Assembly (NCBI RefSeq): GCF_009789195.1
Contig: NZ_WSTC01000006.1
Span: 8,126-72,125, forward strand
Direction: 5' to 3'
Source of the DNA: Paenibacillus sp. MMS18-CY102
GTDB taxonomy: Bacteria > Bacillota > Bacilli > Paenibacillales > Paenibacillaceae
Length of the DNA: 64,000 bases
In this document: positions 37,988-64,000 of the stretch, in pieces
Layout: each line of letters begins with the position of its first letter
Position numbering within the stretch: the stretch's first letter is position 1
The notes under the pieces: generated by a model
Told to the model about the DNA's origin: nothing
Database searches by the model: none
What the model saw: the letters and a program-made list of their open reading frames with translations, nothing else
Program-made: the position numbers and the translations under genes

Positions 37988-38305
37988 CCTTCATATATCG
38001 GTTATTATTGCCTCGGCGCTGGCGCGTTGAGGCTTATTTGTCGTATTTTGTCGCGATAGGTCCATAGATGGCCGTCATGATCGCTCATGCGCTTAAGCTG
38101 CCTGTCGAATCGCAAGTAGAGGTAGGGAATTTGATTTCATCTCGCAATCTTTGGCATAACTAACATGCTAGAGCAGCTCCCGTCATGGGGGCTCTCTTTT
38201 GTTTCGTTGCATCCATTAACTATGATACGATAGGCGATAATGGCAGCATCGCTGGCTTTTACGATAAGGGAACCATCCTAGAAGATAAGGAAGTGTTATC
38301 CAACA

Positions 38306-39013: not shown

Positions 39014-39029
39014 ATGATCGGCATTTCAA

Positions 39030-39062
39030 CTCCCCTTGGGGAAGTTGGAATGCTTTTTTTGT
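39030..39062 (+). terminator. rho-independent terminator
   Basis: caactcccc-ttg-gggaagttg hairpin followed by T7. Confidence 0.45.
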
Positions 39063-39064
39063 TC

Positions 39065-39247
39065 TAACGGACTCAGGAGCCGTTATTATGCTGAAAAAGT
39101 AACGTTTGCGGCTGTAACGGATCCCAGCGCCGTTATTTGGCGTGTAAATGAACATTGGAGGCACATTTGAGTGAAATAGCGGCATCTGGGTCCGTTAGAT
39201 TTTGAATTCGTGTGTTTAGCGTCCAATAACGGCTCTGGAGTCCGTTA
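39065..39247. repeat. array of four TAACGG-N9-CCGTTA palindromic units (copy B of the about 190-bp element)
   Basis: Units at 39065-39085, 39115-39135, 39177-39197 (tagcgg variant) and 39227-39247. The unit order and spacing are colinear with copy A. Confidence 0.6.
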
Positions 39248-39569
39248 GGTTAGGTGGTTGCGGGCGATTAGGCCAGAATGCATCATGCTGTGCTGCATGA
39301 TACGAAGCAATATAATGCCAAGCAACATAATGCCAACAAGGTGCACAACGTACGCTGGGATGGGGGATTTCGCTGCGGGCGAATCGTCATCGGCGATAAG
39401 TGACAGCCCAGGGAATATCCGCACCGCGCCTGTCTCCTGGCGTGTGGTGCCATCGCGGCAGACTGTGCTGAGTCTTGGACCGGTGGCCTACCCATGCGGA
39501 TTGTCATAACCGACATGTGACCAAGCATAAACCATGTATAAGGGACTAATCTGTATACATGGGAGGGCC

Positions 39570-48644: not shown

Positions 48645-48696
48645 AGGCTGGAGGCTTGCTTGGATGCAGGCGAAAAAGTACAAGGGAGGAACCCCC

Positions 48697-50694: not shown

Positions 50695-51354
50695 ATGACA
50701 TGGAACGAATTCATTAAAGGTTTAGAAAGCTTGGATTGGAAGCAAGACACGCCTGAAACCTTCAATAAAGTGGAGGCACTCTTAAAAGGCATCTCACAAA
50801 ATCCCGAAGAGTTGGAGAAGAGATGCCAAGAAATTGTTTCTAATCCAGATCTCTTGCAGAACTATAAACCTCACATGAGCTATCCTAACAAGATCATGGA
50901 TATATTTGTTCTTTATCTTGCGCCTGACAACGGTTTCGCAGTACGGATGCACAGGCTGAAGACGAAGCAGGATAACGCTCATAAAATCCCTCAAGTGCAC
51001 AGCCATGAATGGTCCTATTCGACTCTTATACTGAAAGGTTCTTATCAGGAAAGAAACTATCAGGTAAATTCGATGTCGGAGGAAAACCATACGGCGCAAT
51101 TGGCGTTAATCGAGGATCACGTATTAACAGCAAACGAAATCAATACGGGCATGGCGGGCACCCCGCATATCACTATTAATCATGAAGAAGAGAGCTGCAT
51201 CACTTTATTTGTAAGAGGGAACTTCCAAGGGACAGGCTTTAAAGTCTATCAAATGGAAGAGGGTACCTTCACGTTTAGCGATGGAAAATTCAAGCAGGCA
51301 GAGGAGACTGTCCTTTGCCGGGAACTTATGCGCATCGGCCGACTACAATCTTGA
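50695..51354 (+). CDS. cupin-fold protein, cysteine-dioxygenase-type-I-like (HxH motif)
   Basis: IPQVHSHEWSYSTLILKGSYQE resembles the CDO-type metal-binding HxH...L.G motif. Weak assignment. Confidence 0.35.
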   Translation: MTWNEFIKGLESLDWKQDTPETFNKVEALLKGISQNPEELEKRCQEIVSNPDLLQNYKPHMSYPNKIMDIFVLYLAPDNGFAVRMHRLKTKQDNAHKIPQVHSHEWSYSTLILKGSYQERNYQVNSMSEENHTAQLALIEDHVLTANEINTGMAGTPHITINHEEESCITLFVRGNFQGTGFKVYQMEEGTFTFSDGKFKQAEETVLCRELMRIGRLQS

Positions 51355-51373
51355 CAGAAGTGGAGAGCACATC

Positions 51374-53011
51374 ATGTATGTACTTGGATTGAATTGCGGC
51401 AAACATGACTCTTCTGCCGCATTGGTAAAGGATGGGCAGTTGATCGCTATGGCTGAGCAGGAACGATTCAGCCGGAATAAAAGGGCTGTGGGTGAAGCGC
51501 CGGTTGATGCGATTTTATTTTGTCTCACTAAAGCTGGAATCGGGCTGGAGGACGTGAACGCTGTTGCTTTGGGCTGGAATTATTCCCGCACGCGTGAATT
51601 GTACAACGAGCCGGCGGATGGAAGGGACCAGAGAGAGGTTCTGTTTCCTAAATCAGTGTTTAAGGCAACGGCGATTCCTCCGATTATGCCTGTCGATCAT
51701 CATTTAGCCCATGCAGCTAGTGCATTCTGGCCAAGCGGGTTTAAGGAATCTGCCATTCTGGTTGTTGACGGCGGTGGGGAAACGGAATCAACAACAATCG
51801 CATACGGAAATGGAAACGGCATTCAGGTTCTTGAATCTCTTCCCTTGCCAGGTTCATTGGGACACTACTATGCAGCGGCGACCCGTTATGTTGGCATGAA
51901 GGCAAGGCATGCCGGGAAGATGATGGGGCTTGCTGCATACGGGAAGCCGGATCAGGCTATGCCGCTTTCTGTCGATGAAACTGGCCTGAATTGGCGGGGG
52001 TTATCTGAGTTAGAGCATTCTGGATCCTACTCCGCAATGGAGTCGTTTCGAGCAGCATTGGAAGACCATTTCGAACAGAATTGTTTTCCTTTTAAAAAAG
52101 GGACAGGAGAAGATCTATTCGCCTATGTATCCTTTGCAGCATCTGCCCAGAAGTCGTTAGAAGAGGCAATTTTGTCGTTGGCGGAACGGGCATGTTCCTT
52201 AACGAAACAGCGAAATATCGTGCTTGCCGGCGGGGTAGCGCTGAACTGCAGCGCCAATGGCAAGCTGGCCCGATCTGGCATTGCCAATAACCTATTTGTT
52301 CAACCTGCAGCGAGTGATTCAGGTGTTTCTTGGGGGGCTGCGCTAGTACTATCGCAGCGATTGGGCGTTAATATGCAGAGTGAAGCGATGCGGCATGCCT
52401 ATTGGGGACCAGATTATAGCCACTGTGACATCGAGGCCAGCCTGAATGATGCACAACTTAAATTTGAACGGCTTACCCATGAAGAGCTCATCGAACAGGT
52501 TGCTATGTGCCTACATCATAAAAAGATCGTCGGGTGGTTTCAGGGTCGAGCGGAAATCGGGCCGCGTGCCCTGGGGGCGCGGAGCATTCTCGGAAATCCA
52601 ACTGACCGGGATACACTAATTCGTTTAAATAGAATCAAGTGCCGTGAGATGTGGCGGCCTTTTGCGCCTAGTGTGGCAGAAGAGAGTTTCCATCACTATT
52701 TTGACAGCCCTCATCCTTCTCCGTTTATGATTGTCGCCGCCAAGGTTCATGAATCCATGCGCAAGAGAATTCCTGCAGTCGTACACGCAGATGGCACAGC
52801 ACGCCCTCAATCGGTACGCAGGGAAGATAATGAACTTTATTGGAAACTGCTTCAGAAATTCGGCGAATACAGTGGAATGCCGGTCCTTGTGAACACCTCG
52901 TTTAATTTGGATAAAGAACCGATCGTACACACGCCGGGGCAAGCAATAACTGATTTTATCAATACGGAGATGGACGTGCTGGCCATCGGCAACTATATAG
53001 TGAGGAAGTAA
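51374..53011 (+). CDS. NodU/CmcH-family carbamoyltransferase (TobZ/NovN-like)
   Basis: N-terminus MYVLGLNCGKHDSSAALVKDGQLIAMAEQERFSRNK and a C-terminal YrdC-like region, typical of O/N-carbamoyltransferases. Confidence 0.75.
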   Translation: MYVLGLNCGKHDSSAALVKDGQLIAMAEQERFSRNKRAVGEAPVDAILFCLTKAGIGLEDVNAVALGWNYSRTRELYNEPADGRDQREVLFPKSVFKATAIPPIMPVDHHLAHAASAFWPSGFKESAILVVDGGGETESTTIAYGNGNGIQVLESLPLPGSLGHYYAAATRYVGMKARHAGKMMGLAAYGKPDQAMPLSVDETGLNWRGLSELEHSGSYSAMESFRAALEDHFEQNCFPFKKGTGEDLFAYVSFAASAQKSLEEAILSLAERACSLTKQRNIVLAGGVALNCSANGKLARSGIANNLFVQPAASDSGVSWGAALVLSQRLGVNMQSEAMRHAYWGPDYSHCDIEASLNDAQLKFERLTHEELIEQVAMCLHHKKIVGWFQGRAEIGPRALGARSILGNPTDRDTLIRLNRIKCREMWRPFAPSVAEESFHHYFDSPHPSPFMIVAAKVHESMRKRIPAVVHADGTARPQSVRREDNELYWKLLQKFGEYSGMPVLVNTSFNLDKEPIVHTPGQAITDFINTEMDVLAIGNYIVRK

Positions 53012-53025
53012 GGGGTGATTTTACG

Positions 53026-53997
53026 GTGTTCGATCGTATCATCGACCGGGTGGGAAACACTCCGTTGCTTAAAATTCCGATTCAGGATTTGCCCACGGTG
53101 AATGTTTACAGCAAGTTGGAATTTCATAATCCGACAGGCAGCGTTAAAGATAGAGCGGCAAGTTATATCCTTCACAAATTAATAGAAGACAAAGAAATTG
53201 TGCCTGGCGATACGATAATCGAGTCTACTTCGGGAAATTTCGGAATTGCTCTGGCCGTTTTCACGCAAGCTTTGGGCTACAGATTTATTTGTGTAATCGA
53301 CCCGAATATTTCGGAAGTAAATGAATTTTTGATCCGAAAATTTTGTCCGAATGTAATAAAGGTATCCGAGGTCGACGAGAATGGCGGTTATTTGCTAAGT
53401 CGGATTAAAAAGGTGAAACAGTTGCTGAGGGAGATCCCGAATTCGTATTGGATCAATCAGTACAGCAGCGAATATAACGCGGATGCTTATTGCGATACGT
53501 TAGGTGAAGAACTAATAGGTGAGATAGGCCGAATCGACTATTTGTTTTTAGGAGTGAGTTCAGGGGGGACTATTACCGGGGTGTCCCGAAAAATTAAGCA
53601 AATGTTTCCGGATTGTAAGGTCATCGCTGTGGACATTTATGGTTCCGTCATATTCGGGCAGCCTCCAAAGAAACGATACATACCGGGGATTGGCTCCAGT
53701 ATGGTTCCAGAAATTTTGAAGAATGCCCTGATCGACGACGTCATTTATGTTGATGAAGTCGAAACGGTGGAAGGATGTCACGAACTGCTGCAAAGCCATT
53801 ATATTTTTGCAGGAGGCTCGTCGGGATCTGTCTATGTCGCCATAAAAAAATATTTTAAGGATGCAAACATTCAAAATGCGCCTAATGTTGTTACGATTTT
53901 TCCTGATAAGGGAGAGCGTTATTTAAACACCATCTATAACAATGAGTGGTGCAGGCGGCTTATTGCCAATGCATCGAATGAAATCAAATACAGCTAG
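53026..53997 (+). CDS. PLP-dependent cysteine-synthase-family enzyme, SbnA-like
   Basis: NTPLLKI...SKLEFHNPTGSVKDRAASYIL (PLP-Lys motif). Pairs with the next gene. Confidence 0.65.
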   Translation: MFDRIIDRVGNTPLLKIPIQDLPTVNVYSKLEFHNPTGSVKDRAASYILHKLIEDKEIVPGDTIIESTSGNFGIALAVFTQALGYRFICVIDPNISEVNEFLIRKFCPNVIKVSEVDENGGYLLSRIKKVKQLLREIPNSYWINQYSSEYNADAYCDTLGEELIGEIGRIDYLFLGVSSGGTITGVSRKIKQMFPDCKVIAVDIYGSVIFGQPPKKRYIPGIGSSMVPEILKNALIDDVIYVDEVETVEGCHELLQSHYIFAGGSSGSVYVAIKKYFKDANIQNAPNVVTIFPDKGERYLNTIYNNEWCRRLIANASNEIKYS

Positions 53998-54007
53998 GAG
54001 ATGCGCA

Positions 54008-54967
54008 ATGCGCTACTTGAACGAAGAGGATATCAAGTCGATTGGGATGCCGTGGGAAGATCTGATCGCAGCCATTGAGGCTACAGTCGATTGTATGAGA
54101 GCGCATGACTATGTCCAGCCTGTCAAACCGTATTTGAGATACCGTAACCCTGATAATCGAATTATTGCAATGCCTGCATTTGTAGGGGGGGCGGTTGAGG
54201 CGGCGGGCATCAAGTGGATATCTAGCTTTCCAGACAATCATCAAATGCAGCTTCCCAGAGCGCATAGTGTAGTGATACTCAATGAGCCAGATACAGGGCA
54301 ACCTCTAGCCATTATTAATACAGCATTGCTGAGCATTATGAGGACGGTGGCAGTATCCGGTTTCTTCGTCAAGGGCTATATGGCGGCAAGAAAGCCGTGC
54401 AAGGTTAAAGTCGGCATAATAGGCCTTGGCCCGATTGGAACGCATCATTTGAAGTTTTTTGAGGACATTTACGGACAATGGATAGATGCTTTTTTGCTTT
54501 ATGACGAAAACCCGATGAAGCTGGACGGCTTAATGGATAGGGATCGCATGACAATAACACCAACATGGGAAGAAGCGTACATTGAGGCTGACATTGTATT
54601 AACATGTACAACAGCTAAGAGGCCTTATATTTGCCTTCCACCCAAGAAAGGGGCGCTTCTCTTAAATGTATCGCTGCGAGATTATGGATCGCAAATATTT
54701 GATTCTGTCGAACATGCAATTATTGTCGATAACTGGACTGAGGTTTGCAGGGAGAATACGGATATTGAAAAGATGCATCTTGAACGAGGATTAAAGGAAG
54801 AGGATACATGCAGCATCACGGATCTGGAGCAGGGCATATGGCATCAATGGCTTGGCGCCGATCACCCGATTATGGTGAACCCGATGGGAATGGCGTCTTT
54901 CGATATTGCAATCGGCAAGTATTATTTGAACAAGGCCATAGAGAAGGGAATTGGAACCATACTTTAG
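54008..54967 (+). CDS. ornithine-cyclodeaminase/mu-crystallin family NAD enzyme, SbnB-like
   Basis: OCD-family size and Rossmann region (KVGIIGLGPIGTHH). Start MRYLNEED after an AGGAG RBS. Confidence 0.65.
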   Translation: MRYLNEEDIKSIGMPWEDLIAAIEATVDCMRAHDYVQPVKPYLRYRNPDNRIIAMPAFVGGAVEAAGIKWISSFPDNHQMQLPRAHSVVILNEPDTGQPLAIINTALLSIMRTVAVSGFFVKGYMAARKPCKVKVGIIGLGPIGTHHLKFFEDIYGQWIDAFLLYDENPMKLDGLMDRDRMTITPTWEEAYIEADIVLTCTTAKRPYICLPPKKGALLLNVSLRDYGSQIFDSVEHAIIVDNWTEVCRENTDIEKMHLERGLKEEDTCSITDLEQGIWHQWLGADHPIMVNPMGMASFDIAIGKYYLNKAIEKGIGTIL

Positions 54968-54983
54968 GACGGAGGATAAAAAG

Positions 54984-56780
54984 GTGGTATCTGTAGACAG
55001 TTCTGCACCCCAACGCATGAAAGAACGGATGATTTTGCGCATCTACTGGTGGGTTCTTTCGTTCTTGTTTCCTTACAAATGGCAGCTGTTAACTGTGCTC
55101 GCATGCAGCATGGTGATTTCTGGAATTGAGCTCGCCATCCCTAAATTTATCGAGCATTTAATTGACCAAATTATGTCCGTCGGCCATTTTTCGAATTTTG
55201 GCGAAACACTCGCTGTGATGGCGGGTTTGCTCATTATTATGTTCGGCATATCTGCCCTGCGGATGCTCGTTCAGCGCCACATGCAGGAAAAGGCTGCTAG
55301 CGATTTGCAATTCCGGATTATTCAGCAACTGCGTACGTTAGGCTATTCTTATTTTGAAAAGCATGCCGTAGGCGAGAGCCTGTCACTCGTGAACACGGAA
55401 TTAAACGCTGTACAAAACATATATCGCAGTGCATTCCCAAGCATGGTCAATGAATTAATATTTGCCGCACTCTCGTTCGGGTTTATGTTTTCGATCCATG
55501 CGGGGTTGTCCTTATTGATCATCCCGTTTTTCGGCCTGTATTATGTGATGGGCCCTTATTTCGAGAAGAAGGCAGCTAACGCGCAAGCGGAATGGGGAGA
55601 GAATCGGATCCGCTACAACCGCAAGATTTACGAGAGCGTGTCGGCGATCTCGGAGCTAAGGGCGAACGGCGCCCAGCCGTGGGACTATCGCCAATTTATG
55701 GACAAGCGCCAGGCGATGGATGACGGGATGGTTCGAACGTTCTGGTATTCCTTCCTGCGCGGTTCTGTACGCCGGTTTTGCAATAATCTCGGGGCTATCG
55801 CAATCTTCATAGTTGGCTTCTATCTCATCAAAGACGGGGCGATCAGCATCGGGGCTTTTACAGCCTTTATGCTGTACTATTTCAACTCGATCTTTAAGCT
55901 AACGGTCGTAGTCACCCTGATCACCGAGCAAAGGCTGCAAATGGTTCAAGCTAAGCGGATTTATGATTTCATGCATCTTGAACCGGAAGTGAAGGAGAAA
56001 GAGAATGCTCGGGCTATTGGCCATGTCGAGGGCAAGATTGATTTTGACCGGGTTTCGTTTCACTATGGCGATGGAAGCCATGCGATTATTCATGATTTTT
56101 CGTTATCGGTCCAAAGCGGGGAGAAGGTTGCGTTGGTTGGATTAAGCGGTGGCGGAAAGTCGACGCTTACTAAATTAATTGGCCGTTTCTATGATCCGAA
56201 ACAGGGTGAGATTCGTCTCGACAATGTCCCCCTGGCCGACATGAAGCTGTCGGATCTGCGAAACAGCATGGGTTTTGTGTTCCAAGATACCTTCTTGTTC
56301 GGAAGCACGATTGAAGAGAACATCAGGTTCGGCAACCCGGATGCATCCGATGAAGAGGTTATAGCAGCGGCTAAGGCAGCGTATGCAGATGAATTTATCC
56401 AACAGCTGCCTATGGGATACGCCACGGTTGTGGGCGAGAGAGGGGTCAAGCTATCTGGCGGCCAGAAACAGCGGATATCAATTGCGCGCATGTTTGTCAA
56501 AAATCCTTCGATCGTCGTTTTGGATGAAGCGACCTCCGCACTCGACAATATAAGCGAGTTAGAAGTGAAGAAAGCATTGGACGCCTTGCTGCAGGGCAGG
56601 ACGACCATTGCTGTCGCACATCGGTTGTCTACGATTGCTAATTACGACCGGATCGTCGTTGTTCATGAGGGGAAAGCAGCCGAGGTTGGCAGCTATAACG
56701 AGTTGCTTGCGTTAGGCGGCATTTTTTATCAAATGGTTCATGGCAACGATTCGACTGCAATACTGCCGGAGGTGATGTGA
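54984..56780 (+). CDS. ABC exporter, fused TMD-NBD (type I exporter half-transporter)
   Basis: Six TM segments then Walker A GLSGGGKST, signature LSGGQKQR and Walker B VVLDEATSALD. GTG start after a GGAGGA RBS. Confidence 0.75.
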   Translation: MVSVDSSAPQRMKERMILRIYWWVLSFLFPYKWQLLTVLACSMVISGIELAIPKFIEHLIDQIMSVGHFSNFGETLAVMAGLLIIMFGISALRMLVQRHMQEKAASDLQFRIIQQLRTLGYSYFEKHAVGESLSLVNTELNAVQNIYRSAFPSMVNELIFAALSFGFMFSIHAGLSLLIIPFFGLYYVMGPYFEKKAANAQAEWGENRIRYNRKIYESVSAISELRANGAQPWDYRQFMDKRQAMDDGMVRTFWYSFLRGSVRRFCNNLGAIAIFIVGFYLIKDGAISIGAFTAFMLYYFNSIFKLTVVVTLITEQRLQMVQAKRIYDFMHLEPEVKEKENARAIGHVEGKIDFDRVSFHYGDGSHAIIHDFSLSVQSGEKVALVGLSGGGKSTLTKLIGRFYDPKQGEIRLDNVPLADMKLSDLRNSMGFVFQDTFLFGSTIEENIRFGNPDASDEEVIAAAKAAYADEFIQQLPMGYATVVGERGVKLSGGQKQRISIARMFVKNPSIVVLDEATSALDNISELEVKKALDALLQGRTTIAVAHRLSTIANYDRIVVVHEGKAAEVGSYNELLALGGIFYQMVHGNDSTAILPEVM

Positions 56781-56784
56781 GGCT

Positions 56785-58497
56785 ATGAAATGGTTATTAA
56801 CGTTCATGATGCCAAGGAAATGGTTTCTGTTGTTGTCGATCGGCGTAATGGCCCTAGAATCGATATGCGGCATTCAAGCCGTCGCGCTACAGCAGAAATT
56901 CATTGATTCCGTCATTATTAATCAACAATATGGCCTATTTTGGCCTACGCTTGGGTGGATTTCCGCCGCATTTTTACTTCACGCCTTATTGTTCACGTTA
57001 GGGCCGCACACGACCCATCTGAATATGGCTTACTTTCATAAAAGGCTGGCGGGGCAGTTTATGAAAACGATCTATCGGCTGCCGATGTCCAAATTACGCA
57101 AAGAACGGTCCGGCAGCTATGTGCAATTTTTCTCTAACGATATCGAGAACGTGTATGGATTGCTAGGCAGCGACATCGCGCGGGGCATGCAGCAGCTTAT
57201 TGCGGCCGTCTTGTTAATTGCCATTGTAGCGAAGGCCAATATGATGATGCTAGTTGCCTTATTCTTGTTTATCGTTGTTTACATCGGAATGGGCAAGTAC
57301 TTTTCCTCCAGAATGAAGAAGGCAGCAAGAGCGGTGCAGGAGAATCGGTCGGCACTCGTCGTTCAATTGGAAGAATCGATCTCAGGTACACGGGAAGTTA
57401 TTGCGTTCCACCGGGAAGAGTGGGAGAGAACCCAGTACAAGAACGTATTCCAGCGATACTACGAGAGCATCATGAACGAGGGCAAATGGCTGAATAAACA
57501 GATGCTTGCAACAGATCCTTTTAAATGGGCGATGAAGCTGCTCGTGATCGTATATGGCGGATACCTTGTCATCAATCATTCGTTGTCTATCGGCATGTTT
57601 GTTGTTGTCTTTCAGCTTACTTCTATGCTGGGGGACACCTGCCAAAGCTTGTTCAACACCGTCATGGGATTGTCTGGAAGAATGGCGAGCGTGGAGAGGG
57701 TTAGAGAGGCGTTAGAGGAAAATATGTTTGATCCTGGCTCTGAGCCTTTAGAAGGTAAAGTATCCTCCTTACGGTTTCAACAGGTTGGCTTTACGTACGA
57801 ATCCGAGGAACAGCAGGTGCTGCATGAGGTTACCTTGGATATGCCGATGGGCAAAAAGATCGCGTTCGTTGGGGCGAGCGGCAGCGGCAAATCAACGGTT
57901 GCCCACTTGCTCTCGCGTTTCTTTGAACCTGGTTCGGGCGAGATTGTTGTCAATGGGATGGATTTAAAAGACATTCGGCGGGATGCGTGGACGGAGCATA
58001 TCGGCATCGTGTTTCAGGACCCGTATATTTTCCCGGATTCCATCGCTAACAATATTAAGCTAGGGCTTGATGCAACTGAGGAGCAAATCACAAAGGTTTG
58101 CCAAGCGGTTGAAATTGATGAACATATCCGCAGCCTTCCGCTGCAGTATGAAACGCCGCTCGGGGAGAGAGGAATGACCTTGTCTGGCGGGCAGCGCCAG
58201 CGAATTGCGCTAGCGCGGGCCCTGCTTCGGGATCCTGAAATATTGATTTTGGACGAAGCCACGTCAGCGCTTGATCTCGAAACGGAGCGAACGTTCCAGC
58301 GAAACCTGGATACGTTAAGGGAAGGCAAGACGACAATCATAATCGCGCATCGGCTGTCGACCATCGAGAATGCAGATGTCATTTATGTCATGCAGAAGGG
58401 CCGGATTGTAGATGCAGGAACGCATGAGGAGCTTATGAGCGAGAGCCGGGCATATCATTCGCTGCTAGCGGCTCACGCGGAGCTGCAGGTGTCTTGA
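56785..58497 (+). CDS. ABC exporter, fused TMD-NBD (partner half-transporter)
   Basis: Walker A GASGSGKST, LSGGQRQR and ILDEATSALD. The gene lies 4 nt after the previous gene. Confidence 0.75.
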   Translation: MKWLLTFMMPRKWFLLLSIGVMALESICGIQAVALQQKFIDSVIINQQYGLFWPTLGWISAAFLLHALLFTLGPHTTHLNMAYFHKRLAGQFMKTIYRLPMSKLRKERSGSYVQFFSNDIENVYGLLGSDIARGMQQLIAAVLLIAIVAKANMMMLVALFLFIVVYIGMGKYFSSRMKKAARAVQENRSALVVQLEESISGTREVIAFHREEWERTQYKNVFQRYYESIMNEGKWLNKQMLATDPFKWAMKLLVIVYGGYLVINHSLSIGMFVVVFQLTSMLGDTCQSLFNTVMGLSGRMASVERVREALEENMFDPGSEPLEGKVSSLRFQQVGFTYESEEQQVLHEVTLDMPMGKKIAFVGASGSGKSTVAHLLSRFFEPGSGEIVVNGMDLKDIRRDAWTEHIGIVFQDPYIFPDSIANNIKLGLDATEEQITKVCQAVEIDEHIRSLPLQYETPLGERGMTLSGGQRQRIALARALLRDPEILILDEATSALDLETERTFQRNLDTLREGKTTIIIAHRLSTIENADVIYVMQKGRIVDAGTHEELMSESRAYHSLLAAHAELQVS

Positions 58498-58522: not shown

Positions 58523-60070
58523 GTGAACGTGTTGAGGCAGTTACTGTTACATATAAAAAATGTTAAAGACAGTTATCCATTAGATTATGTAACCTGTTTC
58601 GAAAAGCCGGTAGCTATTGCAGCAGAAGGAATGAAGAGAGATTCATTCTTTCTGGTGTATATGTATCTGAAGTTTATGCGGGCGTATCATACTAATCTAG
58701 CTTCAGAACAGCACATAGACCGTTGGTCCAATACTTTCCCGCATTTAGGGCTAAAAGTTAATGTCATTCCGGTTAATGCCGCGAATCTGATCGACAACAT
58801 TGTGAAAGAGCTCGATGAGGGGCGCCCTGTTTTGGTGGGGGGCGACTTAAATCAATTGTATTATTCCTATCACTACGAAGAATCACATTGGCCTCATTTG
58901 TTTTTGATCCGGGGGTATGAAGACAAAAAGAAAGTATTGCATATTATCGATGGCTGCCAGAAGAAAACAGATGAGCACTTGTATGAAGAATTTGTAATGG
59001 AATATGAGACGCTTCATAAAGTGTTTCAAGCTGGTGCGGAATCTTACGGATACGATGTAATTTACTCGATTGAGGCGGATCCCAAGCAATACTCGATAAA
59101 GGAAAAGCTCATTCAATTTATCGATTTTATGGATCAATACCGTACGGACCAACCTTTCAAAGAGTTAGATATTATGAAAAAAAATGTGGCTAATTCTGCA
59201 TCCCTTGCCAAAGGGGATTTGGATAAAGTGAATTTTGAACTGATGAAGATTACTAAGCATAAGAAAGTGCTGTACAGTGAGTTGTTTCGAATGCTGGAAG
59301 GGACACTGCCGGATGAGGCACGTAATGGCCTGGACCAGCTTCTGGCTGCCTGGAAACTTGCTATTAGCAAGTTTGTCCTAGCTTGCCATAGGAAAAAAGA
59401 GATCGATTGCGCGGAATTAGTACAGTTACCGCTTCAATATGAACAAATGGTGTATGATGCTGTTCTAACAGCGAGAAGTGTTCTTGAGAGGGAACAAGAG
59501 CGGGTGGAACCTTCTCAAACCGAGTGGATGACTGAAAATAACGAAGATGGTATCCTCCATATCCTCCATAACAGAAGTTTTCACTTTCATTTTCGTGGCG
59601 ATAAAACCTATAACTCATGGATCACCGATGACTCACCGAAGTTATTTTTTAAATCCTTACAAAACAATAATCTAGCAAAAGATTTTACTATTCAGGTTGA
59701 GTTGGAAGTTGTCGGCAAGAGCAGGGATTTGTCCTATCATGCAGGTTTTGTGCTCAGAACAAAGACGGGGGACATGTACTTTTGGGGGATGAATTGCGGG
59801 GAGTCTTTGATGCTTTCGCATATTGGCAACACCAATATTGCTGTTGAGGTACTGGAACATGACTCGGTTGGGCTGCTAATTGAAAAAGAGCACGACTGTT
59901 ACCATTTCAGCTATAGGCAAGAGGGCAAAGTGAATCGTATTAGTGCTTTGAACAATTTGGATGTTGCTGAAATTGGCCTCGTCTGCAAAACCTGGGATGA
60001 AGCAAACGAACTTAGCGTCCATTTTACAGGGCTAACAGCTACATCTTCTTTGAATGAAACGCTTATTTAG
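58523..60070 (+). CDS. hypothetical protein (515 aa); possibly a BtrH-like carrier-protein-dependent acyltransferase
   Basis: Only its position, immediately upstream of the PCP/A/dehydrogenase genes, and vague similarity to the BtrH_N family support this. Low confidence in the family call. Confidence 0.35.
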   Translation: MNVLRQLLLHIKNVKDSYPLDYVTCFEKPVAIAAEGMKRDSFFLVYMYLKFMRAYHTNLASEQHIDRWSNTFPHLGLKVNVIPVNAANLIDNIVKELDEGRPVLVGGDLNQLYYSYHYEESHWPHLFLIRGYEDKKKVLHIIDGCQKKTDEHLYEEFVMEYETLHKVFQAGAESYGYDVIYSIEADPKQYSIKEKLIQFIDFMDQYRTDQPFKELDIMKKNVANSASLAKGDLDKVNFELMKITKHKKVLYSELFRMLEGTLPDEARNGLDQLLAAWKLAISKFVLACHRKKEIDCAELVQLPLQYEQMVYDAVLTARSVLEREQERVEPSQTEWMTENNEDGILHILHNRSFHFHFRGDKTYNSWITDDSPKLFFKSLQNNNLAKDFTIQVELEVVGKSRDLSYHAGFVLRTKTGDMYFWGMNCGESLMLSHIGNTNIAVEVLEHDSVGLLIEKEHDCYHFSYRQEGKVNRISALNNLDVAEIGLVCKTWDEANELSVHFTGLTATSSLNETLI

Positions 60071-60092: not shown

Positions 60093-60329
60093 ATGATGAC
60101 TCCACAATTTTTTGAAATTATTAGCCAGTATTTAGAGAAGGCAGATGAGATCGATCCTGAAGAAGAACTCGTTTCATTGGGCCTAGACTCCTTGAAGGTG
60201 ATCAACCTCGTGTTGGATCTTGAGGATGCGTTTGGCATTGAGTTTCCCGACCGCTATCTTAATGAGGAGACTTTCCGGACTTCAATATCTTTATGGAATA
60301 CGATAACTGCGATCAAAGACAATCAGTAA
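60093..60329 (+). CDS. stand-alone peptidyl/acyl carrier protein
   Basis: 78 aa; phosphopantetheine attachment motif LGLDSLKVINL. Confidence 0.65.
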   Translation: MMTPQFFEIISQYLEKADEIDPEEELVSLGLDSLKVINLVLDLEDAFGIEFPDRYLNEETFRTSISLWNTITAIKDNQ

Positions 60330-60332
60330 CCA

Positions 60333-62504
60333 ATGTGGACAAACGTAAAGGGGAAACCATATTTGAACTTATATCCGTTGAAGGATGACTCGGTCGCAAA
60401 TTATTTGATGAAAGAAACTGTTCCATGCGGCAATGATAAACAATTCGAATTGAGGATCCAATGGCAAGATGGGCTTGAAGTGTTGGCGGCTGAGCCGGGG
60501 GTTTCAATAGATGAGGTGCTTCTAGCCGTAATTTGTATTGTTCTTGCAAAATATACCTATCAGAAGCAAATAACAGTTAACGTACGTACTGATGCTGTAG
60601 AGAAGCAGATAGGCTGCAAATTGGACGGGCGTCAGCCTTTTGCTTCCCTGCTCCGTCAGGTCGGGGAACAGATGAACAGTCAAAATGTCGCTGATCGTGT
60701 GGATTCGTGCGTGGAACGAATTGTTTTCTGCAGTTCAGGAAGAGAAACTGTCGATCAACATTTAAAATTCACGCCACTAAGTGGGAAGTTCGGGGTAACT
60801 CTTAAAATTGAGTATAAAGACGTTTTATCATCTGAGAGTGTCTGGCGTATGGGAGAGCATATCCTTCATGTTTTAAACAAGGTTGCTGATCAGCCGGATA
60901 TACTGCTGGAAGCAATTGAGATGGTTTCGCCAATTGAGAAAGATTTATTATTGACACGATTTAACCGAACGGAATCAAGCATTTTGGATCAAACCTTTAT
61001 TCCGCAATTCGAACATATGGTTGAGTGTTACCCTGAGCGAATCGCAATGAAGCATAATGACATTGAAATTAGTTATGCGCATGCAAACCGTGCAGCGAAT
61101 CAGTTGGCTCGTTATTTCCTGGATCAGGGAATAACAACGCAGGCGTTTGTTGTCATTGCGATGCCGCGATCCCATCTTTTTGGAATCTGTGTATTGGCTT
61201 TATGGAAAATACGAGCGATATATGTGCCGGTAGAACATGATTACCCGAAAGAGAGACTGGCCCAAATACTAGGTGAATGTGAAGCTGCTCATATTCTGAC
61301 ATCATCCCATTCGGTGCGGCACGAAGGCGTTACGGCTATCCAAATAAATGATGAACTGCTTCAGGCCATTGCTTTGCTGGATGATAAGAACGTGGTACAG
61401 AATTATTTAATGGAAGATATATCCTATGTTATATATACTTCTGGATCCACTGGAAAACCAAAAGGCGTGATGATCGAACATCGGGGAATGATGAATCATC
61501 TGCTTGCCAAAATTGAGGATTTCAGCATTACAGAGCAAACCGCCGTTGCGCAGATGGCCTCCCAGTGCTTTGACATATCGGTTTGGCAACTGTTCGCACC
61601 GCTGATAGCTGGCGGAAGGACGGTTATTTATGAAAAGCAGGCCGTAACGGCAGTGAAGACGCTTGTCCACCAACTTATTGCTGACCGGATTTCAATTTTG
61701 GAGATTGTCCCTTCCTACCTTGCGGCGATGCTAGAGTTTCTAAAGAGAAGAACCGTCAAGTTGGAACATTTGCAACTGCTGATGGTCACTGGTGAGATTG
61801 TAAAGCCGTTTTTGCTCGAAACGTGGTTTCAGCTCTACCCAGAGATTCCTTTCGCCAATGTTTATGGACCGACAGAAGCCTCAGATGATATAACGCACTA
61901 TTTCTCGGATAAAGCCTTGCTGGCTGATTATGTTCCGATTGGGAAGCCGATTCGAAATATGACTGTGTACATCTTTGATCGATTTGATAACCTGTGCCCG
62001 GTTGGGGCAGTAGGTGAGATATGTGTTGCCGGAGATGGGGTTGGACCGGGGTATGTCCGTAATATAGAGAAAACTAATGCGGTCTTTGGCATTGCTCCAT
62101 TTCAGAATGAATGTGTCCGAATGTACAGAACAGGCGATCTCGGATACTGGCTGTCGGACGGAAATATTCGTTTTATAGGGCGTAAGGATAATCAAGTAAA
62201 GGTTAAGGGGTACCGAATCGAATTGGAAGAAATAGAGAATACCTTCATGAGGATTGCAAATGTTCAGGAGATCGCTGCCGACGTGATCAATCATGATGGC
62301 GGCAATGCAATTGCCGTATATTATGTACATGATCGGGAAATGGATATTCCAGCAGTCATTCAAGCAGCCAGACAGGTGTTGCCTGAATACATGATACCAA
62401 TCCGATTTATCCGAATGGAGCATATGCCAACATTAGTAAGCGGGAAATTGGATAGAAAACAACTTCAGAAACATGCGCTTGCTTATAGCCTGGGGGATTC
62501 ATGA
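60333..62504 (+). CDS. stand-alone adenylation (AMP-binding) protein with about 230-aa N-terminal condensation-domain-remnant-like extension
   Basis: A-domain cores YTSGSTGKPKGV (A3), YGPTE (A5), YRTGDL (A7) and GRKDNQVKVKGYRIELEEIE (A8). The N-terminal region EVLLAVICIVLAKYT resembles the C-domain segment that precedes A domains. Confidence 0.75.
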   Translation: MWTNVKGKPYLNLYPLKDDSVANYLMKETVPCGNDKQFELRIQWQDGLEVLAAEPGVSIDEVLLAVICIVLAKYTYQKQITVNVRTDAVEKQIGCKLDGRQPFASLLRQVGEQMNSQNVADRVDSCVERIVFCSSGRETVDQHLKFTPLSGKFGVTLKIEYKDVLSSESVWRMGEHILHVLNKVADQPDILLEAIEMVSPIEKDLLLTRFNRTESSILDQTFIPQFEHMVECYPERIAMKHNDIEISYAHANRAANQLARYFLDQGITTQAFVVIAMPRSHLFGICVLALWKIRAIYVPVEHDYPKERLAQILGECEAAHILTSSHSVRHEGVTAIQINDELLQAIALLDDKNVVQNYLMEDISYVIYTSGSTGKPKGVMIEHRGMMNHLLAKIEDFSITEQTAVAQMASQCFDISVWQLFAPLIAGGRTVIYEKQAVTAVKTLVHQLIADRISILEIVPSYLAAMLEFLKRRTVKLEHLQLLMVTGEIVKPFLLETWFQLYPEIPFANVYGPTEASDDITHYFSDKALLADYVPIGKPIRNMTVYIFDRFDNLCPVGAVGEICVAGDGVGPGYVRNIEKTNAVFGIAPFQNECVRMYRTGDLGYWLSDGNIRFIGRKDNQVKVKGYRIELEEIENTFMRIANVQEIAADVINHDGGNAIAVYYVHDREMDIPAVIQAARQVLPEYMIPIRFIRMEHMPTLVSGKLDRKQLQKHALAYSLGDS

Positions 62505-63673
62505 TAATGATCGATTTAAAAAATAAACTGTCTCACGCCGTCGATAATATTATTGCTAAACATGCTGCCGATGTAGATAGACAGTCAAGATTTCCATTGG
62601 AATCTATCAACGCTTTGAAGGATATTAAGCTATTGGGCGCTTATATTAAGCGAGAAGATGGCGGGCTAGGCTGCACGTTGTCTGACATTGCCGGCATGAC
62701 CATGATGATCGCCCAAAAATGCGCGTCTACCGCCATGATTTTTGCCATGCACCACATTCAAGTCGCGTGTATCATGCATCACGAGGAGAGTAGCAGCTTT
62801 AAGGGGTATTTGAAGGAAATCGCTGACAAGCAATTGCTGCTTGCTTCGAATACGTCTGAGGTAGGCACAGGAGGAGATAATGGGCGGAGTATCGCAGGTG
62901 TCGAGTATGTGGGTCCAAGATGCACGCTTCTCAAAGATGCTTCGATTATTTCCTATGGCGCTTACGCGGATAGCATTTTGGTCACGGCCAAGAAATCCCC
63001 GGACGCGCGCACGACAGATCAAGTGCTGATATTAATGAAAAAGGAAGAGACTGAGCTTACAGAGACCGGAGTATGGGACACTCTTGGGATGCGGGGCACA
63101 TGCAGCCCGCCATTTCAAATAAAGGGTTCCTTTCCCATAGAAAATATTTTTAATACGCAATTCAAAACCGTGCTTTCCCAAACAATGGTGCCGGTATCCC
63201 ATATTCTATGGTCGTCCTGCTGGCTGGGAATCGCAACTGATGCTGCCGACACGGCGAGAAAGTATGTGCAATCCAAAGCGCGGAAAAGCAAGCCCTATCT
63301 TCCAGATACGAGATTGGCGGAAATGAACAATAGTTTGCAGTTACTAAACAGCCAATTGATTCATTGTTTGGACACATATAAAGCGTTGCTTGAATTGCCA
63401 GAAGAGCATCGGAAGAGTGAACTAACCAGCACACCTGTTTTGTTGAAGTGGAATGCTTTAAAGATGAATGTTTCGAACGATGCAGCAGGGATTGTGCATC
63501 GTGCGATGCAGATTTGTGGCATTTCATCTTACCAAAATAACGGTCAATACACCTTGGCCAAACATCTGCGTGACATTCATTCGGCGAGCTTGATGATCAA
63601 TAACGAGCGTTTAATGGAAACCAATGCATCTTTATTATTAATTTATAAAAATTCTGATCATCCATTGTTCTAA
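62501..63673 (+). CDS. acyl-CoA-dehydrogenase-family flavoenzyme (acyl/aminoacyl-S-carrier-protein dehydrogenase-like)
   Basis: ACAD fold, about 390 aa. The start ATGA overlaps the A-protein stop. Confidence 0.65.
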   Translation: MIMIDLKNKLSHAVDNIIAKHAADVDRQSRFPLESINALKDIKLLGAYIKREDGGLGCTLSDIAGMTMMIAQKCASTAMIFAMHHIQVACIMHHEESSSFKGYLKEIADKQLLLASNTSEVGTGGDNGRSIAGVEYVGPRCTLLKDASIISYGAYADSILVTAKKSPDARTTDQVLILMKKEETELTETGVWDTLGMRGTCSPPFQIKGSFPIENIFNTQFKTVLSQTMVPVSHILWSSCWLGIATDAADTARKYVQSKARKSKPYLPDTRLAEMNNSLQLLNSQLIHCLDTYKALLELPEEHRKSELTSTPVLLKWNALKMNVSNDAAGIVHRAMQICGISSYQNNGQYTLAKHLRDIHSASLMINNERLMETNASLLLIYKNSDHPLF

Positions 63674-63690: not shown

Positions 63691-64000
63691 ATGGGCATCA
63701 CCTTGGAAGCGAGACTGTTAATTATTCTAGGTAAATCGACACTTAGTTACGAGGAGATCGAAGAAGCCAAACACATTATGGAAAACCGGCACTTTCACAT
63801 ACCGCGATTTTTTAGGTTAATATTCGAACATAAAGTGGCTACGTTTGTCTATCAGAATTTGCTCCGCCATGAGCTTACTAATTATATAAAGCGTAAATAC
63901 CGTCATGTTCTGGAAATTTATTGCGCGGACATAACAAGACGATTTACGGCCATTAATAGGGAAGTGGATTGCTTAGTTCGCAATTTCGCAGAAAAGCAAG
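63691..64000 (+). CDS. hypothetical protein, 3'-truncated by the window end
   Basis: The open frame begins MGITLEARLLIIL and runs to the window edge. Confidence 0.3.
   Translation, partial: MGITLEARLLIILGKSTLSYEEIEEAKHIMENRHFHIPRFFRLIFEHKVATFVYQNLLRHELTNYIKRKYRHVLEIYCADITRRFTAINREVDCLVRNFAEKQ

What the first reader, a model, noticed from the sequence alone, without database searches (positions are those of the whole stretch)
60093..63673. Translationally coupled PCP - adenylation - ACAD-like dehydrogenase triad
A 78-aa carrier protein, a free-standing A protein and an acyl-CoA-dehydrogenase-like flavoprotein lie together; stop and start codons abut or overlap at 60329/60333 and 62501/62504. 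This is the canonical arrangement that converts L-prolyl-S-PCP to pyrrolyl-2-carboxyl-S-PCP in pyoluteorin, prodiginine and clorobiocin-type pathways. The A protein also carries an about 230-aa N-terminal segment resembling a condensation-domain remnant. The substrate cannot be assigned from what I can read.
Basis: partly seen in the sequence, partly recalled or inferred. Interest (0 to 1): 0.6.

Follow-up and report, generated by a model that had tools for sequence, protein, structure and literature searches.

The report
Diaminopropionate carrier-protein oxidation module, not pyrrole
The three genes load the unusual amino acid L-2,3-diaminopropionate onto a small carrier protein and oxidise it there with a flavoenzyme, most like the first steps of L-alanosine biosynthesis; this is not the proline-to-pyrrole pathway, and the flavoenzyme belongs to a widespread family whose role is still unknown.

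Summary
The three ORFs are real and tightly packed, but they are not a proline-to-pyrrole module.

- **Substrate.** The A protein's specificity code is DIWEMTVDDK. It nearly matches AlaC (DIWELTAD), the free-standing A domain of L-alanosine biosynthesis that was shown experimentally to load L-Dap. SbnA/SbnB-type L-Dap synthase genes lie 5 kb upstream in the same gene string.
- **Flavoprotein.** The ACAD-like protein has the ACAD fold and flavin-contact motifs. It lacks the catalytic glutamate at both known positions and scores far below the PigA/RedW models.
- **Family.** It belongs to a large clade (at least 596 hits in species genomes). This clade almost always sits beside a carrier protein, a SerRS-like amino acid:carrier-protein ligase and a papain-like DUF1839 protein. 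A 2022 review states that the role of these ligases is unknown. On a Streptomyces plasmid the same clade occurs as PCP-ACAD-SbnA-SbnB-A(Dap).
- **Context.** Directly upstream lie a BtrH/CtaG-type Cys-His-Asp ligase, two ABC exporters, a carbamoyltransferase and NDP-sugar genes.

Best reading: L-Dap is tethered and oxidised on the carrier, either by N-hydroxylation as proposed for AlaD or by desaturation as proposed for VioJ. It is then transferred to an amino-sugar-type acceptor. This is a new variant of a known kind. The flavoenzyme's chemistry is unproven.

The parts
60093..60329 (+). Free-standing 78-aa carrier protein (ACP/PCP), Ser33 in GLDSL
   Evidence: PP-binding 4.7e-11. Its best NCBIfam model is NF005480, the carrier of the aa:CP-ligase cassette, at 53 bits against a cut-off of 72. 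Cassette carriers score 99-102 bits on that model. It shares the (V/I)EFP(D/A)..L motif with the cassette carrier and the S. anulatus PCP.
60333..62504 (+). Free-standing truncated-C + adenylation protein with no carrier domain. Predicted substrate L-2,3-diaminopropionate. The true start is probably TTG 60363.
   Evidence: AMP-binding 7.9e-70, TIGR01733 at 364 bits, a Condensation fragment only. Stachelhaus code DIWEMTVDDK, against AlaC DIWELTAD, which is proven for L-Dap. Same-architecture homologues lie directly next to SbnA/SbnB genes.
62501..63673 (+). ACAD-fold flavoprotein of a glutamate-less, carrier-protein-linked clade. The true start is probably ATG 62507.
   Evidence: Pfam N- and C-terminal ACAD domains. 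Model pLDDT 89.9, TM-score 0.78-0.86 to ACADs, TcsD, DszC and KijD3. The catalytic Glu is replaced by I/V. It is 45-50% identical to cassette ACADs, with 65 invariant columns shared.
58523..60070 (+). BtrH/CtaG-type papain-like ligase that uses carrier-bound donors (C25, H125, D143), with a helical region and a C-terminal beta-sandwich
   Evidence: BtrH_N at 39.6 bits against a cut-off of 29.7. The triad residues are conserved in its only homologue, P0242. A low-confidence model (pLDDT 59) finds CtaG at E=1e-7 and then AziU2/U3 and CcbD. The class is described in PMC12865890.
53026..53997 (+). SbnA-type PLP enzyme (first step of L-Dap synthesis)
   Evidence: TIGR03945 at 398.8 bits, above the cut-off of 349.95
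53942..54967 (+). SbnB-type dehydrogenase (second step of L-Dap synthesis). The likely start is Met23, about 54008.
   Evidence: TIGR03944 at 299.6 bits, the best hit but just below the cut-off of 326.9; the match starts at residue 23
54951..58497 (+). Two fused permease/ATPase ABC exporters
   Evidence: ABC_membrane + ABC_tran in both. A similar pair follows the S. anulatus Dap module.
51281..53011 (+). NodU/CmcH-type carbamoyltransferase
   Evidence: Carbam_trans_N and Carbam_trans_C, 6e-66; NodU model 184 bits
45473..47851 (+). NDP-sugar tailoring genes: epimerase/dehydratase, RmlC-like cupin and RmlD-like reductase. They probably make the acceptor.
   Evidence: Epimerase, dTDP_sugar_isom and RmlD_sub_bind hits
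63691..64000 (+). Start of an NTP_transf_5 gene, cut by the window end
   Evidence: PF14907 at 24 bits, below the cut-off. The same family lies next to an ACP near the only homologue of the BtrH-like protein.

Best explanation
The triad is an L-2,3-diaminopropionate (L-Dap) loading and on-carrier oxidation module, of the kind that starts L-alanosine biosynthesis (AlaA/B/C/L/D).

1. Inferred from strong homology: the SbnA/SbnB homologues 5 kb upstream make L-Dap.
2. Inferred from a near-identical specificity code: the free-standing A protein adenylates L-Dap and thioesterifies it to the 78-aa carrier.
3. The fold and the missing catalytic base are shown here; the reaction is inferred. The ACAD-fold flavoprotein oxidises the tethered Dap and is not a classical alpha,beta-acyl dehydrogenase. 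My preferred chemistry is flavin-dependent N-hydroxylation of the beta-amine, as proposed for AlaD/AlnG (about 45%). The second choice is C2-C3 desaturation or amine oxidation, as proposed for VioJ (about 35%).
4. Inferred: the BtrH/CtaG-type Cys-His-Asp ligase encoded directly upstream takes the acyl group from the carrier and forms an amide with a free amine. That acceptor is probably an NDP-amino-sugar-like scaffold made by the upstream genes. The carbamoyltransferase may add a carbamoyl group, and the two ABC pumps export the product.
For: **Substrate.**
- Code DIWEMTVDDK against AlaC DIWELTAD, proven for L-Dap by ATP-PPi exchange and loading on the PCP AlaL.
- A Streptomyces A protein that sits beside SbnA/SbnB has the code DIWEITADDK.
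- Paenibacillus homologues with the same C-remnant+A build (DIWEVTADDK) lie directly before SbnA/SbnB genes.
- The window SbnA scores above the equivalog cut-off.

**Flavoprotein.**
- ACAD fold at pLDDT 89.9. The flavin-contact Ser151 and the RD motif are kept, but both catalytic-Glu positions are lost.
- The clade is carrier-linked: 72 of 80 loci have an ACP within 5 kb, and 69 of 80 keep the order ACAD>ligase>DUF1839.
- A clade member (35.5% identical) lies in PCP-ACAD-SbnA-SbnB-A on an S. anulatus plasmid.
- A flavin reductase gene is adjacent in L073, L083 and Streptomyces sp. M54, and sits beside ACPS-ACP in L025 and L026.
- AlaD is an 'acyl-CoA dehydrogenase' that is essential for alanosine and is proposed to N-hydroxylate PCP-bound Dap.

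**Off-loading.**
- BtrH_N above the Pfam cut-off; C25, H125 and D143 conserved; fold hits to CtaG and CcbD. BtrH and AsbE take PCP-bound donors and free acceptors.
- The S. anulatus module likewise has NDP-sugar dehydratase/epimerase genes, a transferase (a C-domain protein) and two ABC pumps.
Against: - No flavin reductase, nitrite-forming CreE/CreD-type genes or thioesterase are present anywhere in the window, so this is not an alanosine cluster as such.
- I could not retrieve AlaD's sequence, so orthology is untested. The two AlaD peptides recoverable from knockout primers fit the Streptomyces M54-type protein better than the window protein.
- The code differs from AlaC at two pocket positions (L299M, A322V), so L-Dab or another short basic amino acid is not excluded.
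- The family profile scores higher on true short-chain ACADs (90 bits) than on the N-oxygenase KijD3 (68 bits), so a dehydrogenase or oxidase remains quite possible.
- The BtrH-like model is of low confidence (pLDDT 59) and the protein has no sequence hit in the PDB.
- The cluster continues beyond the window end, and the downstream sequence could not be obtained.
Confidence: 0.6

Rival explanations
1. One reading: the triad converts L-prolyl-S-PCP to pyrrolyl-2-carboxyl-S-PCP, as PltF/L/E, RedM/O/W or PigI/G/A do.
For: The gene content is the same at domain level: a free-standing carrier, an A protein and an ACAD-fold protein, tightly packed.
Against: - The code DIWEMTVDDK has three acidic pocket residues and matches a proven Dap code.
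- The PigA and RedW equivalog models give 26 and 15 bits against cut-offs of 500 and 650.
- Both catalytic-Glu positions are lost.
- Prolyl-ACP dehydrogenase 4irn is only a marginal hit, and the prolyl-carrier ligase 7thn_B is the weakest listed A-domain hit.
- L-Dap synthase genes are in the operon.
- No pyrrole-accepting KS, halogenase or acyltransferase is in the window.
Confidence: 0.03
2. VioJ-type chemistry. The flavoprotein desaturates carrier-bound Dap to beta-amino-dehydroalanine. The neighbouring carbamoyltransferase then makes beta-ureido-dehydroalanine, as proposed for viomycin and capreomycin, before transfer to the scaffold.
For: - Dap supply, a Dap-type A domain, a carrier, an ACAD-fold enzyme and a carbamoyltransferase all lie in one gene string.
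- VioJ (an FAD dehydrogenase) and VioL are proposed to do exactly this on a protein-tethered Dap unit.
- The family profile's best solved-structure hits are true ACADs, and TcsD, an acyl-ACP dehydrogenase, gives the best TM-score.
- No flavin reductase is present in the window.
Against: - No catalytic base sits at either ACAD position.
- The carbamoyltransferase is NodU/CmcH-type. From general knowledge, that type is mostly O-carbamoylating, whereas VioL is ornithine-carbamoyltransferase-type.
- Several relatives are linked to flavin reductases.
- From general knowledge, cassette relatives are loaded with Gly or Ala by aa:CP ligases, and glycine has no beta-carbon to desaturate.
Confidence: 0.25
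3. The triad is only a trans-acting starter or building-block supplier for an NRPS or PKS encoded beyond the window end. The BtrH-like gene is unrelated to it.
For: - The closest same-architecture A proteins (P0124-P0127) lie next to giant NRPS genes.
- The window ends 327 bp after the triad.
- The P. stellifer relative of the BtrH-like protein lies near an ACP and a KS.
Against: - Those NRPS-linked homologues lack the carrier and the ACAD partner.
- Here the carrier follows the BtrH-like gene after 22 nt in one gene string.
- No NRPS or PKS gene lies in the 64 kb.
Confidence: 0.1
4. Extender-unit pathway of the zwittermicin type (ZmaH/J/I): seryl-S-ACP is oxidised to aminomalonyl-ACP for a PKS.
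For: It is also an ACP + A + ACAD-like set. From general knowledge, Bacillus-group organisms make zwittermicin, which also uses Dap and a carbamoyl group.
Against: - The code is Dap-type, not Ser-type.
- No 3-hydroxyacyl-CoA dehydrogenase partner and no PKS is in the window.
- The ACAD clade is defined by the aa:CP-ligase cassette, not by PKS contexts.
Confidence: 0.02

Closest known systems
L-alanosine early pathway (AlaA/AlaB SbnAB homologues, AlaC free-standing A, AlaL free-standing PCP, AlaD/AlnG ACAD-type flavoenzyme, AlaH reductase), Streptomyces alanosinicus (bioRxiv 10.1101/763607; reviews PMC11705231, PMC7347517)
   Same: - SbnA/SbnB genes in the cluster.
- A free-standing A domain with an almost identical pocket code (DIWEMTVD against DIWELTAD).
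- A free-standing carrier.
- A ~385-390-aa protein annotated as acyl-CoA dehydrogenase that acts on carrier-bound Dap.
   Different: - No flavin reductase, no nitrite-forming AlaI/AlaJ and no thioesterase.
- Release is instead by a BtrH/CtaG-type ligase.
- The A protein carries a dead C-domain half.
- The host is a Paenibacillus.
- NDP-sugar, carbamoyltransferase and PEP-utilising genes surround it.
- Orthology of the flavoprotein to AlaD could not be tested.
Amino acid:[carrier protein] ligase cassette (carrier NF005480, ACAD-like, SerRS-like ligase NF005479, DUF1839); from general knowledge described by Mocibob et al. 2010/2013; biological role unknown per PMC9437257
   Same: The flavoprotein is a clear member of this cassette's ACAD clade (45-50% identity, 65 shared invariant columns). 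The carrier's best model is the cassette carrier. The logic is the same: loader + carrier + flavoprotein + papain-fold enzyme, next to sugar-related genes.
   Different: - The loader is an NRPS A domain, not a SerRS-like ligase. The same swap occurs independently in L067.
- The papain-fold enzyme is BtrH_N, not DUF1839.
- No GH2-like protein or double alpha/beta-hydrolase partner is present.
- The substrate is Dap rather than Gly or Ala.
Pyrrole-forming triads PltF/PltL/PltE, RedM/RedO/RedW, PigI/PigG/PigA
   Same: Free-standing A, carrier and ACAD-fold flavoprotein acting on an aminoacyl thioester.
   Different: A different substrate code, a different ACAD clade and no catalytic glutamate. 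The model scores are 20- to 40-fold below the cut-offs, and no pyrrole-consuming enzymes are present.
Tuberactinomycin beta-ureidodehydroalanine formation (VioB/VioK Dap synthesis, VioJ dehydrogenase, VioL carbamoyltransferase)
   Same: Dap synthesis genes, an FAD enzyme proposed to act on protein-tethered Dap, and a carbamoyltransferase in one cluster.
   Different: In viomycin the Dap is part of an NRPS-bound peptide. From general knowledge, VioL is of a different carbamoyltransferase family. The relationship to VioJ is untested.
CtaG/BtrH/AsbE-type thiotemplated papain-like ligases and the lincosamide condensation enzyme CcbD/LmbD (PMC12865890, PMC4351081)
   Same: Cys-His-Asp enzymes that take a carrier-bound acyl or aminoacyl donor and acylate an amine. 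In butirosin and the lincosamides the acceptor is an amino sugar. An A + carrier pair is encoded nearby.
   Different: The window protein is 515 aa, with an extra C-terminal beta-sandwich. It has only one detectable sequence homologue and no sequence hit to any solved structure.

Membership tests
Prolyl-carrier to pyrrolyl-2-carboxyl triad (PltF/L/E type) | A domain specific for L-proline | tested here: not met
   The code DIWEMTVDDK has E278, D330 and D331 and matches the proven L-Dap code of AlaC. The prolyl-carrier ligase 7thn_B is the weakest of the 60 listed structure hits.
Prolyl-carrier to pyrrolyl-2-carboxyl triad (PltF/L/E type) | Flavoprotein orthologous to PigA/RedW/PltE | tested here: not met
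   NF053553 PigA gives 26.2 bits against 500; NF045652 RedW gives 15.4 bits against 650. Prolyl-ACP dehydrogenase 4irn scores 37.5 bits, near the bottom of the 60 structure hits listed.
Prolyl-carrier to pyrrolyl-2-carboxyl triad (PltF/L/E type) | Free-standing carrier protein with a phosphopantetheine serine | tested here: met
   PP-binding 4.7e-11, GLDSL motif
Classical acyl-CoA/acyl-ACP dehydrogenase | Catalytic glutamate (the MCAD Glu376 'YEG' position or the IVD Glu254 position) | tested here: not met
   The profile alignment puts 'lmisnd' against 'IYEGTN', so Glu aligns with I/V. The IVD position is Ser233-His234. Both hold across 29 family members.
Classical acyl-CoA/acyl-ACP dehydrogenase | ACAD three-domain fold and flavin-contact motifs | tested here: met
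   pLDDT 89.9; TM-score 0.78-0.86 to MCAD, SCAD and TcsD. Ser151 of 'ISYG' aligns with the Thr of 'ITNG'; G340 and Y344 lie in the GGxGY-like motif. Binding of FAD or FMN was not tested experimentally.
L-alanosine-type Dap module (AlaA/B/C/L/D/H) | SbnA/SbnB L-Dap synthase pair in the cluster | tested here: met
   TIGR03945 at 398.8 bits, above 349.95. TIGR03944 at 299.6 bits, the best hit but just below 326.9.
L-alanosine-type Dap module (AlaA/B/C/L/D/H) | Free-standing A domain with the AlaC-type pocket (DIWELTAD) | tested here: met
   6 of 8 positions are identical and the two changes are conservative (L->M, A->V). Substrate preference itself cannot be tested here.
L-alanosine-type Dap module (AlaA/B/C/L/D/H) | ACAD-type flavoenzyme orthologous to AlaD/AlnG | not testable with these tools
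   The AlaD sequence could not be fetched. Only two 13-aa primer-encoded peptides were available, and these fit the Streptomyces M54 protein (8/13 and 6/13) better than the window protein. The window protein is 33% identical to the M54 protein and 35.5% to the S. anulatus PCP-ACAD-SbnAB-A protein.
L-alanosine-type Dap module (AlaA/B/C/L/D/H) | Partner flavin reductase, nitrite-forming CreE/CreD homologues and a thioesterase | tested here: not met
   None found among the ORFs of the window that were scanned. The flavin reductase query from L073 has no hit in the window.
aa:CP-ligase cassette | ACAD-like protein of the cassette clade | tested here: met
   45-50% identity to members. 75 of 80 best genome loci carry the SerRS-like ligase within 5 kb. 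65 invariant columns include the window protein.
aa:CP-ligase cassette | SerRS-like amino acid--[ACP] ligase (NF005479) and DUF1839 | tested here: not met
   The window has an NRPS A domain and a BtrH_N protein instead. Profile comparison of the BtrH-like protein with DUF1839 is weak: probability 12%, E=0.0024, colinear.
aa:CP-ligase cassette | Carrier of family NF005480 | tested here: inconclusive
   It is the best model, but at 53 bits against a cut-off of 72. True cassette carriers score 99-102 bits.
CtaG/BtrH-type thiotemplated ligases | Papain-like N-domain with a Cys-His-Asp triad, followed by a helical region | tested here: met
   BtrH_N at 39.6 bits, above 29.7. C25, H125 and D143 are conserved in both known sequences. 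The predicted secondary structure puts Cys at a helix N-terminus and His and Asp on adjacent strands, followed by helices 192-326. The fold search puts CtaG on top at E=1e-7, but the model's pLDDT is only 59.

The most novel reading that the evidence does not exclude
The glutamate-less ACAD clade may be a family of carrier-protein-dependent flavin oxygenases that N-oxygenate tethered small amino acids.

If so, the widespread aa:CP-ligase cassette (hundreds of species in many phyla, role stated to be unknown in a 2022 review) would make N-oxidised Gly/Ala units for glycan decoration. The Paenibacillus cluster here would make an N-hydroxy-Dap unit, possibly carbamoylated or diazeniumdiolate-type, amide-linked to an amino sugar or nucleoside by a CtaG/BtrH-type ligase. 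That would be a natural-product class not yet described.
Probability: 0.25. Interest if true: 0.8.

Novelty: new variant of a known kind. Interest (0 to 1): 0.6.

Why it matters
- **Substrate and annotation.** The analysis gives a concrete, testable substrate (L-Dap) and corrects a tempting mis-annotation as a pyrrole pathway.
- **A link between three systems.** One enzyme family connects the alanosine-type Dap-PCP oxidation step, whose enzyme AlaD has no demonstrated reaction; the orphan aa:CP-ligase cassette found in hundreds of species; and papain-fold ligases that use carrier-bound donors. The window's version has a defined amino acid supply and a compact gene set, so it is a good place to establish what this flavoprotein family does.
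- **Product.** The cluster probably encodes an undescribed Dap-acylated sugar-type metabolite from a Paenibacillus.

Tried and rejected
- **Parent contig beyond 64000.** Exact-protein look-ups for the window ACAD, P0001 and P0241 found nothing. The genome is not among the species-representative genomes.
- **First hand-derived code.** My initial code had Ser at position 278. It was corrected to Glu by a formal alignment to GrsA.
- **Literature search for code strings** (DIWELTADDK and similar) found nothing in main texts. The code turned up in a supplement.
- **BtrH-like protein against DUF1839.** The profile comparison is only weakly supportive, so I do not claim homology beyond both being papain-like.
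- **PDB entries 5gj7 and 5z8t**, the best single-sequence hits, could not be traced to a paper.
- **Structure of the BtrH-like protein.** It came out at pLDDT 59 from a two-sequence alignment. I use its fold hits only as corroboration. It has no sequence-level PDB hit.
- **Promoter and terminator scan** shows nothing above shuffled background.
- **Paper look-ups.** Mocibob 2010 (PMC2930448) and the published alanosine paper (PMC7176540) are not held.
- **Considered and rejected.** A nitrososynthase-like enzyme acting on the dTDP-sugar: rejected because the clade is carrier-linked in 72 of 80 loci. An FkbI/ZmaI extender-unit enzyme: rejected because there is no PKS and the code is Dap-type.

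Full report
**Observation.**
- 60093-60329 encodes a 78-aa carrier protein (PP-binding 4.7e-11; GLDSL serine motif).
- 60333-62504 encodes a 723-aa protein. Residues 226-705 form a complete adenylation domain (AMP-binding 7.9e-70; TIGR01733 364 bits against a cut-off of 317; motifs A3, A4, A5, A7 and A8 intact).
- Its first ~215 residues are the C-terminal half of a condensation domain. The Pfam match covers only profile positions 226-276 of 456, the LgrA alignment begins at residue 149, and there is no HHxxxDG motif.
- 62501-63673 encodes a 390-aa ACAD-fold protein.

The 3-nt gap and the ATGA overlap exist for the longest ORFs. The database versions from Paenibacillus sp. MMS18-CY102 are 713 and 388 aa. 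Shine-Dalgarno placement favours their starts, TTG 60363 and ATG 62507. Either way the genes are tightly packed, and all 19 genes from 42013 to the window end form one same-strand string with gaps of at most 29 nt.

**Substrate.** I aligned the A protein to GrsA-PheA. The specificity code that results is D I W E M T V D D K. Three acidic pocket residues (E278, D330, D331) do not suit proline.

The supplement of the L-alanosine paper lists the 8-residue code of AlaC as D I W E L T A D. AlaC was shown by ATP-PPi exchange and by loading on the PCP AlaL to prefer L-Dap. The window code matches in 6 of 8 positions, with L->M and A->V changes.

Three further facts point to L-Dap.
- The gene at 53026 passes the SbnA equivalog model (398.8 bits, above 349.95). 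The next gene is best matched by the SbnB model (299.6 bits, just under 326.9). This pair makes L-Dap for NRPS pathways (PMC10906522).
- The only proteins sharing the unusual C-remnant+A architecture (P0124-P0127, 37-39% identical, code DIWEVTADDK) lie immediately upstream of SbnA/SbnB genes in other Paenibacillus.
- A Streptomyces anulatus plasmid carries PCP, ACAD, SbnA, an unannotated SbnB-like ORF and an A protein with the code DIWEITADDK.

**The flavoprotein.** It is not a PltE/RedW/PigA-type enzyme.
- The PigA and RedW equivalog models give 26 and 15 bits against cut-offs of 500 and 650.
- An AlphaFold model built from 29 family members is confident (pLDDT 89.9). It superposes equally well on true ACADs, on the acyl-ACP dehydrogenase TcsD, and on ACAD-fold oxygenases (DszC/TdsC, KijD3), with TM-scores of 0.78-0.86 and at most 22% identity.
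- Profile alignment to solved ACADs puts the family's 'L-M-I/V-x-N-D-R' against 'I-Y-E-G-T-N', so the catalytic glutamate is a hydrophobic residue. The alternative isovaleryl-CoA-dehydrogenase position is Ser233-His234.
- The flavin-contacting Thr/Ser (Ser151), the RD motif and a GGxGY-like motif are kept.
- The solved prolyl-ACP dehydrogenase (4irn) scores 37.5 bits with the family profile, against 90 for an ordinary short-chain ACAD.

**What family it is.** All close homologues are 44-50% identical. In the best 80 loci:
- 75 have a SerRS-like gene within 5 kb,
- 72 have a carrier protein,
- 72 have a DUF1839 protein,
- 69 keep the order ACAD>ligase>DUF1839, often preceded by a phosphopantetheinyl transferase.

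The ligase is NF005479, 'amino acid--[acyl-carrier-protein] ligase', and the carrier is NF005480. From general knowledge this is the aa:CP-ligase system of Mocibob et al.; a 2022 review states that its biological role is unknown. DUF1839 is a papain-like family of unknown function. Frequent neighbours are a GH2-like ~850-aa protein (40 loci), a double alpha/beta-hydrolase (44 loci) and glycosyltransferases.

The window protein shares all 65 invariant columns of this family. The window carrier's best model is the cassette carrier, though below its cut-off. The loader can be swapped:
- In L067 a 512-aa AMP-binding protein replaces the SerRS-like ligase in an otherwise canonical cassette.
- On Streptomyces plasmids the clade sits with NRPS A domains.

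**Dehydrogenase or oxygenase?** This is unresolved.

In favour of a two-component oxygenase:
- No catalytic base is present.
- Flavin reductase genes lie directly beside the ACAD in L073 and L083, beside the ACPS-ACP pair in L025 and L026, and in the Streptomyces sp. M54 locus.
- AlaD/AlnG is a 385-aa 'acyl-CoA dehydrogenase' that is essential for alanosine. It is proposed, together with the reductase AlaH, to N-hydroxylate PCP-bound Dap.

In favour of a dehydrogenase or oxidase:
- The best profile hits are true ACADs.
- No reductase is present in the window.
- VioJ provides a precedent. It is proposed to desaturate protein-tethered Dap before carbamoylation, and a carbamoyltransferase lies in this cluster.

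I could not obtain the AlaD or VioJ sequences, so the key phylogeny remains to be done. Two AlaD peptides recovered from knockout primers resemble the M54-type protein more than the window protein.

**Off-loading and context.** The gene ending 22 nt before the carrier gene encodes a 515-aa BtrH_N protein (39.6 bits, above 29.7).
- Only one homologue exists among 5.8 billion sequences: P. stellifer, 32% identical, next to an ACP, an NTP_transf_5 gene and other tailoring genes.
- Cys25, His125 and Asp143 are conserved.
- A low-confidence model (pLDDT 59) nevertheless retrieves CtaG first (E=1e-7; its triad is C11/H128/D144), then AziU2/U3 and CcbD.
- A 2026 study defines CtaG, BtrH and AsbE as papain-like ligases that take carrier-bound donors. 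It also cites CcbD as acylating an amino sugar in lincosamide biosynthesis.

Upstream lie two ABC exporters, the Dap genes, a NodU-type carbamoyltransferase, two PEP-utilising ATP-grasp proteins, an MTAP-like phosphorylase and three NDP-sugar tailoring genes. The S. anulatus Dap module is likewise followed by NDP-sugar dehydratase/epimerase genes, a transferase (there a C-domain protein) and two ABC pumps. I therefore infer that the oxidised Dap unit is amide-linked to an amino-sugar-type acceptor and exported.

**Verdict.** The pyrrole interpretation is not supported, although the general logic of a carrier-tethered amino acid oxidised by an ACAD-fold enzyme is right. The closest known system is the start of L-alanosine biosynthesis. 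The flavoprotein's clade is that of the orphan aa:CP-ligase cassette, and the release enzyme is of the BtrH/CtaG kind. This combination is a new variant of known kinds. The substrate assignment is well supported. The flavoprotein's reaction and the acceptor are inferences.

Noticed in passing
window 16098-18326 (+) and 19665-21836 (-), with 22217-23889 and 24912-25553: Two fused glutamine-amidotransferase/chorismate-binding proteins with opposite domain order sit 1.3 kb apart on opposite strands. They are followed by two class-IV aminotransferases (PabC-like), a cupin and a chloramphenicol-phosphotransferase-like kinase. This may be a second, aminobenzoate/aminophenylalanine-type pathway.
   Followed up: no
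L092 (Priestia aryabhattai plasmid p-LAD4) 8358-16917: A cassette variant without DUF1839: acpS, ACP, ACAD (41% identical to the window's), aa:ACP ligase, DMT transporter, ATP-grasp, alpha/beta-hydrolase, alanine permease and alanine racemase. This suggests alanine as substrate and a small exported product.
   Followed up: partly
L094/L096 (Streptomyces anulatus plasmid NZ_CP108693.1) 175176-190185 in the record: PCP, ACAD (35.5%), SbnA, an unannotated SbnB-like ORF and an A protein (DIWEITADDK). These are followed by an epimerase/dehydratase, a PseB-like dehydratase, a 967-aa C-domain protein and two ABC transporters. It is an uncharacterised Dap module with sugar genes, parallel to the window.
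   Followed up: partly
L073 and L083 (Steroidobacteraceae MAGs) 5700-11814: The ACAD-clade gene has no carrier, SerRS-like ligase or DUF1839 nearby. It is preceded by a sugar transferase, a 597-aa AMP-binding enzyme and a 361-aa flavin-reductase-domain protein.
   Followed up: partly
L067 (Gammaproteobacteria MAG) 4334-12739: A canonical extended cassette (ACP, ACAD, DUF1839, GH2-like, double alpha/beta-hydrolase) in which a 512-aa AMP-binding protein (code DNFFIAMVDK) replaces the SerRS-like ligase.
   Followed up: yes
L086 (Paenibacillus stellifer) 1-11530: The only homologue of the BtrH-like protein lies beside a divergent cluster. That cluster has an Orn/DAP decarboxylase, two radical-SAM enzymes, an APH-type kinase, an epimerase, NTP_transf_5, an ACP and a ketosynthase.
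   Followed up: no
window 42828-44423 and 48664-50670: Two PPDK_N + PEP-utilizer proteins (531 and 668 aa) lack the usual third domain. Their N-terminal parts resemble the PigC/RedH and rifampicin-phosphotransferase models. Their role in the cluster is unknown.
   Followed up: no
window 32000-40000: GC content rises to 0.51-0.53, against 0.38-0.47 elsewhere in the window. The region holds housekeeping-type genes: an M29 peptidase, DUF4317, a DNA alkylation repair protein and a catalase.
   Followed up: no
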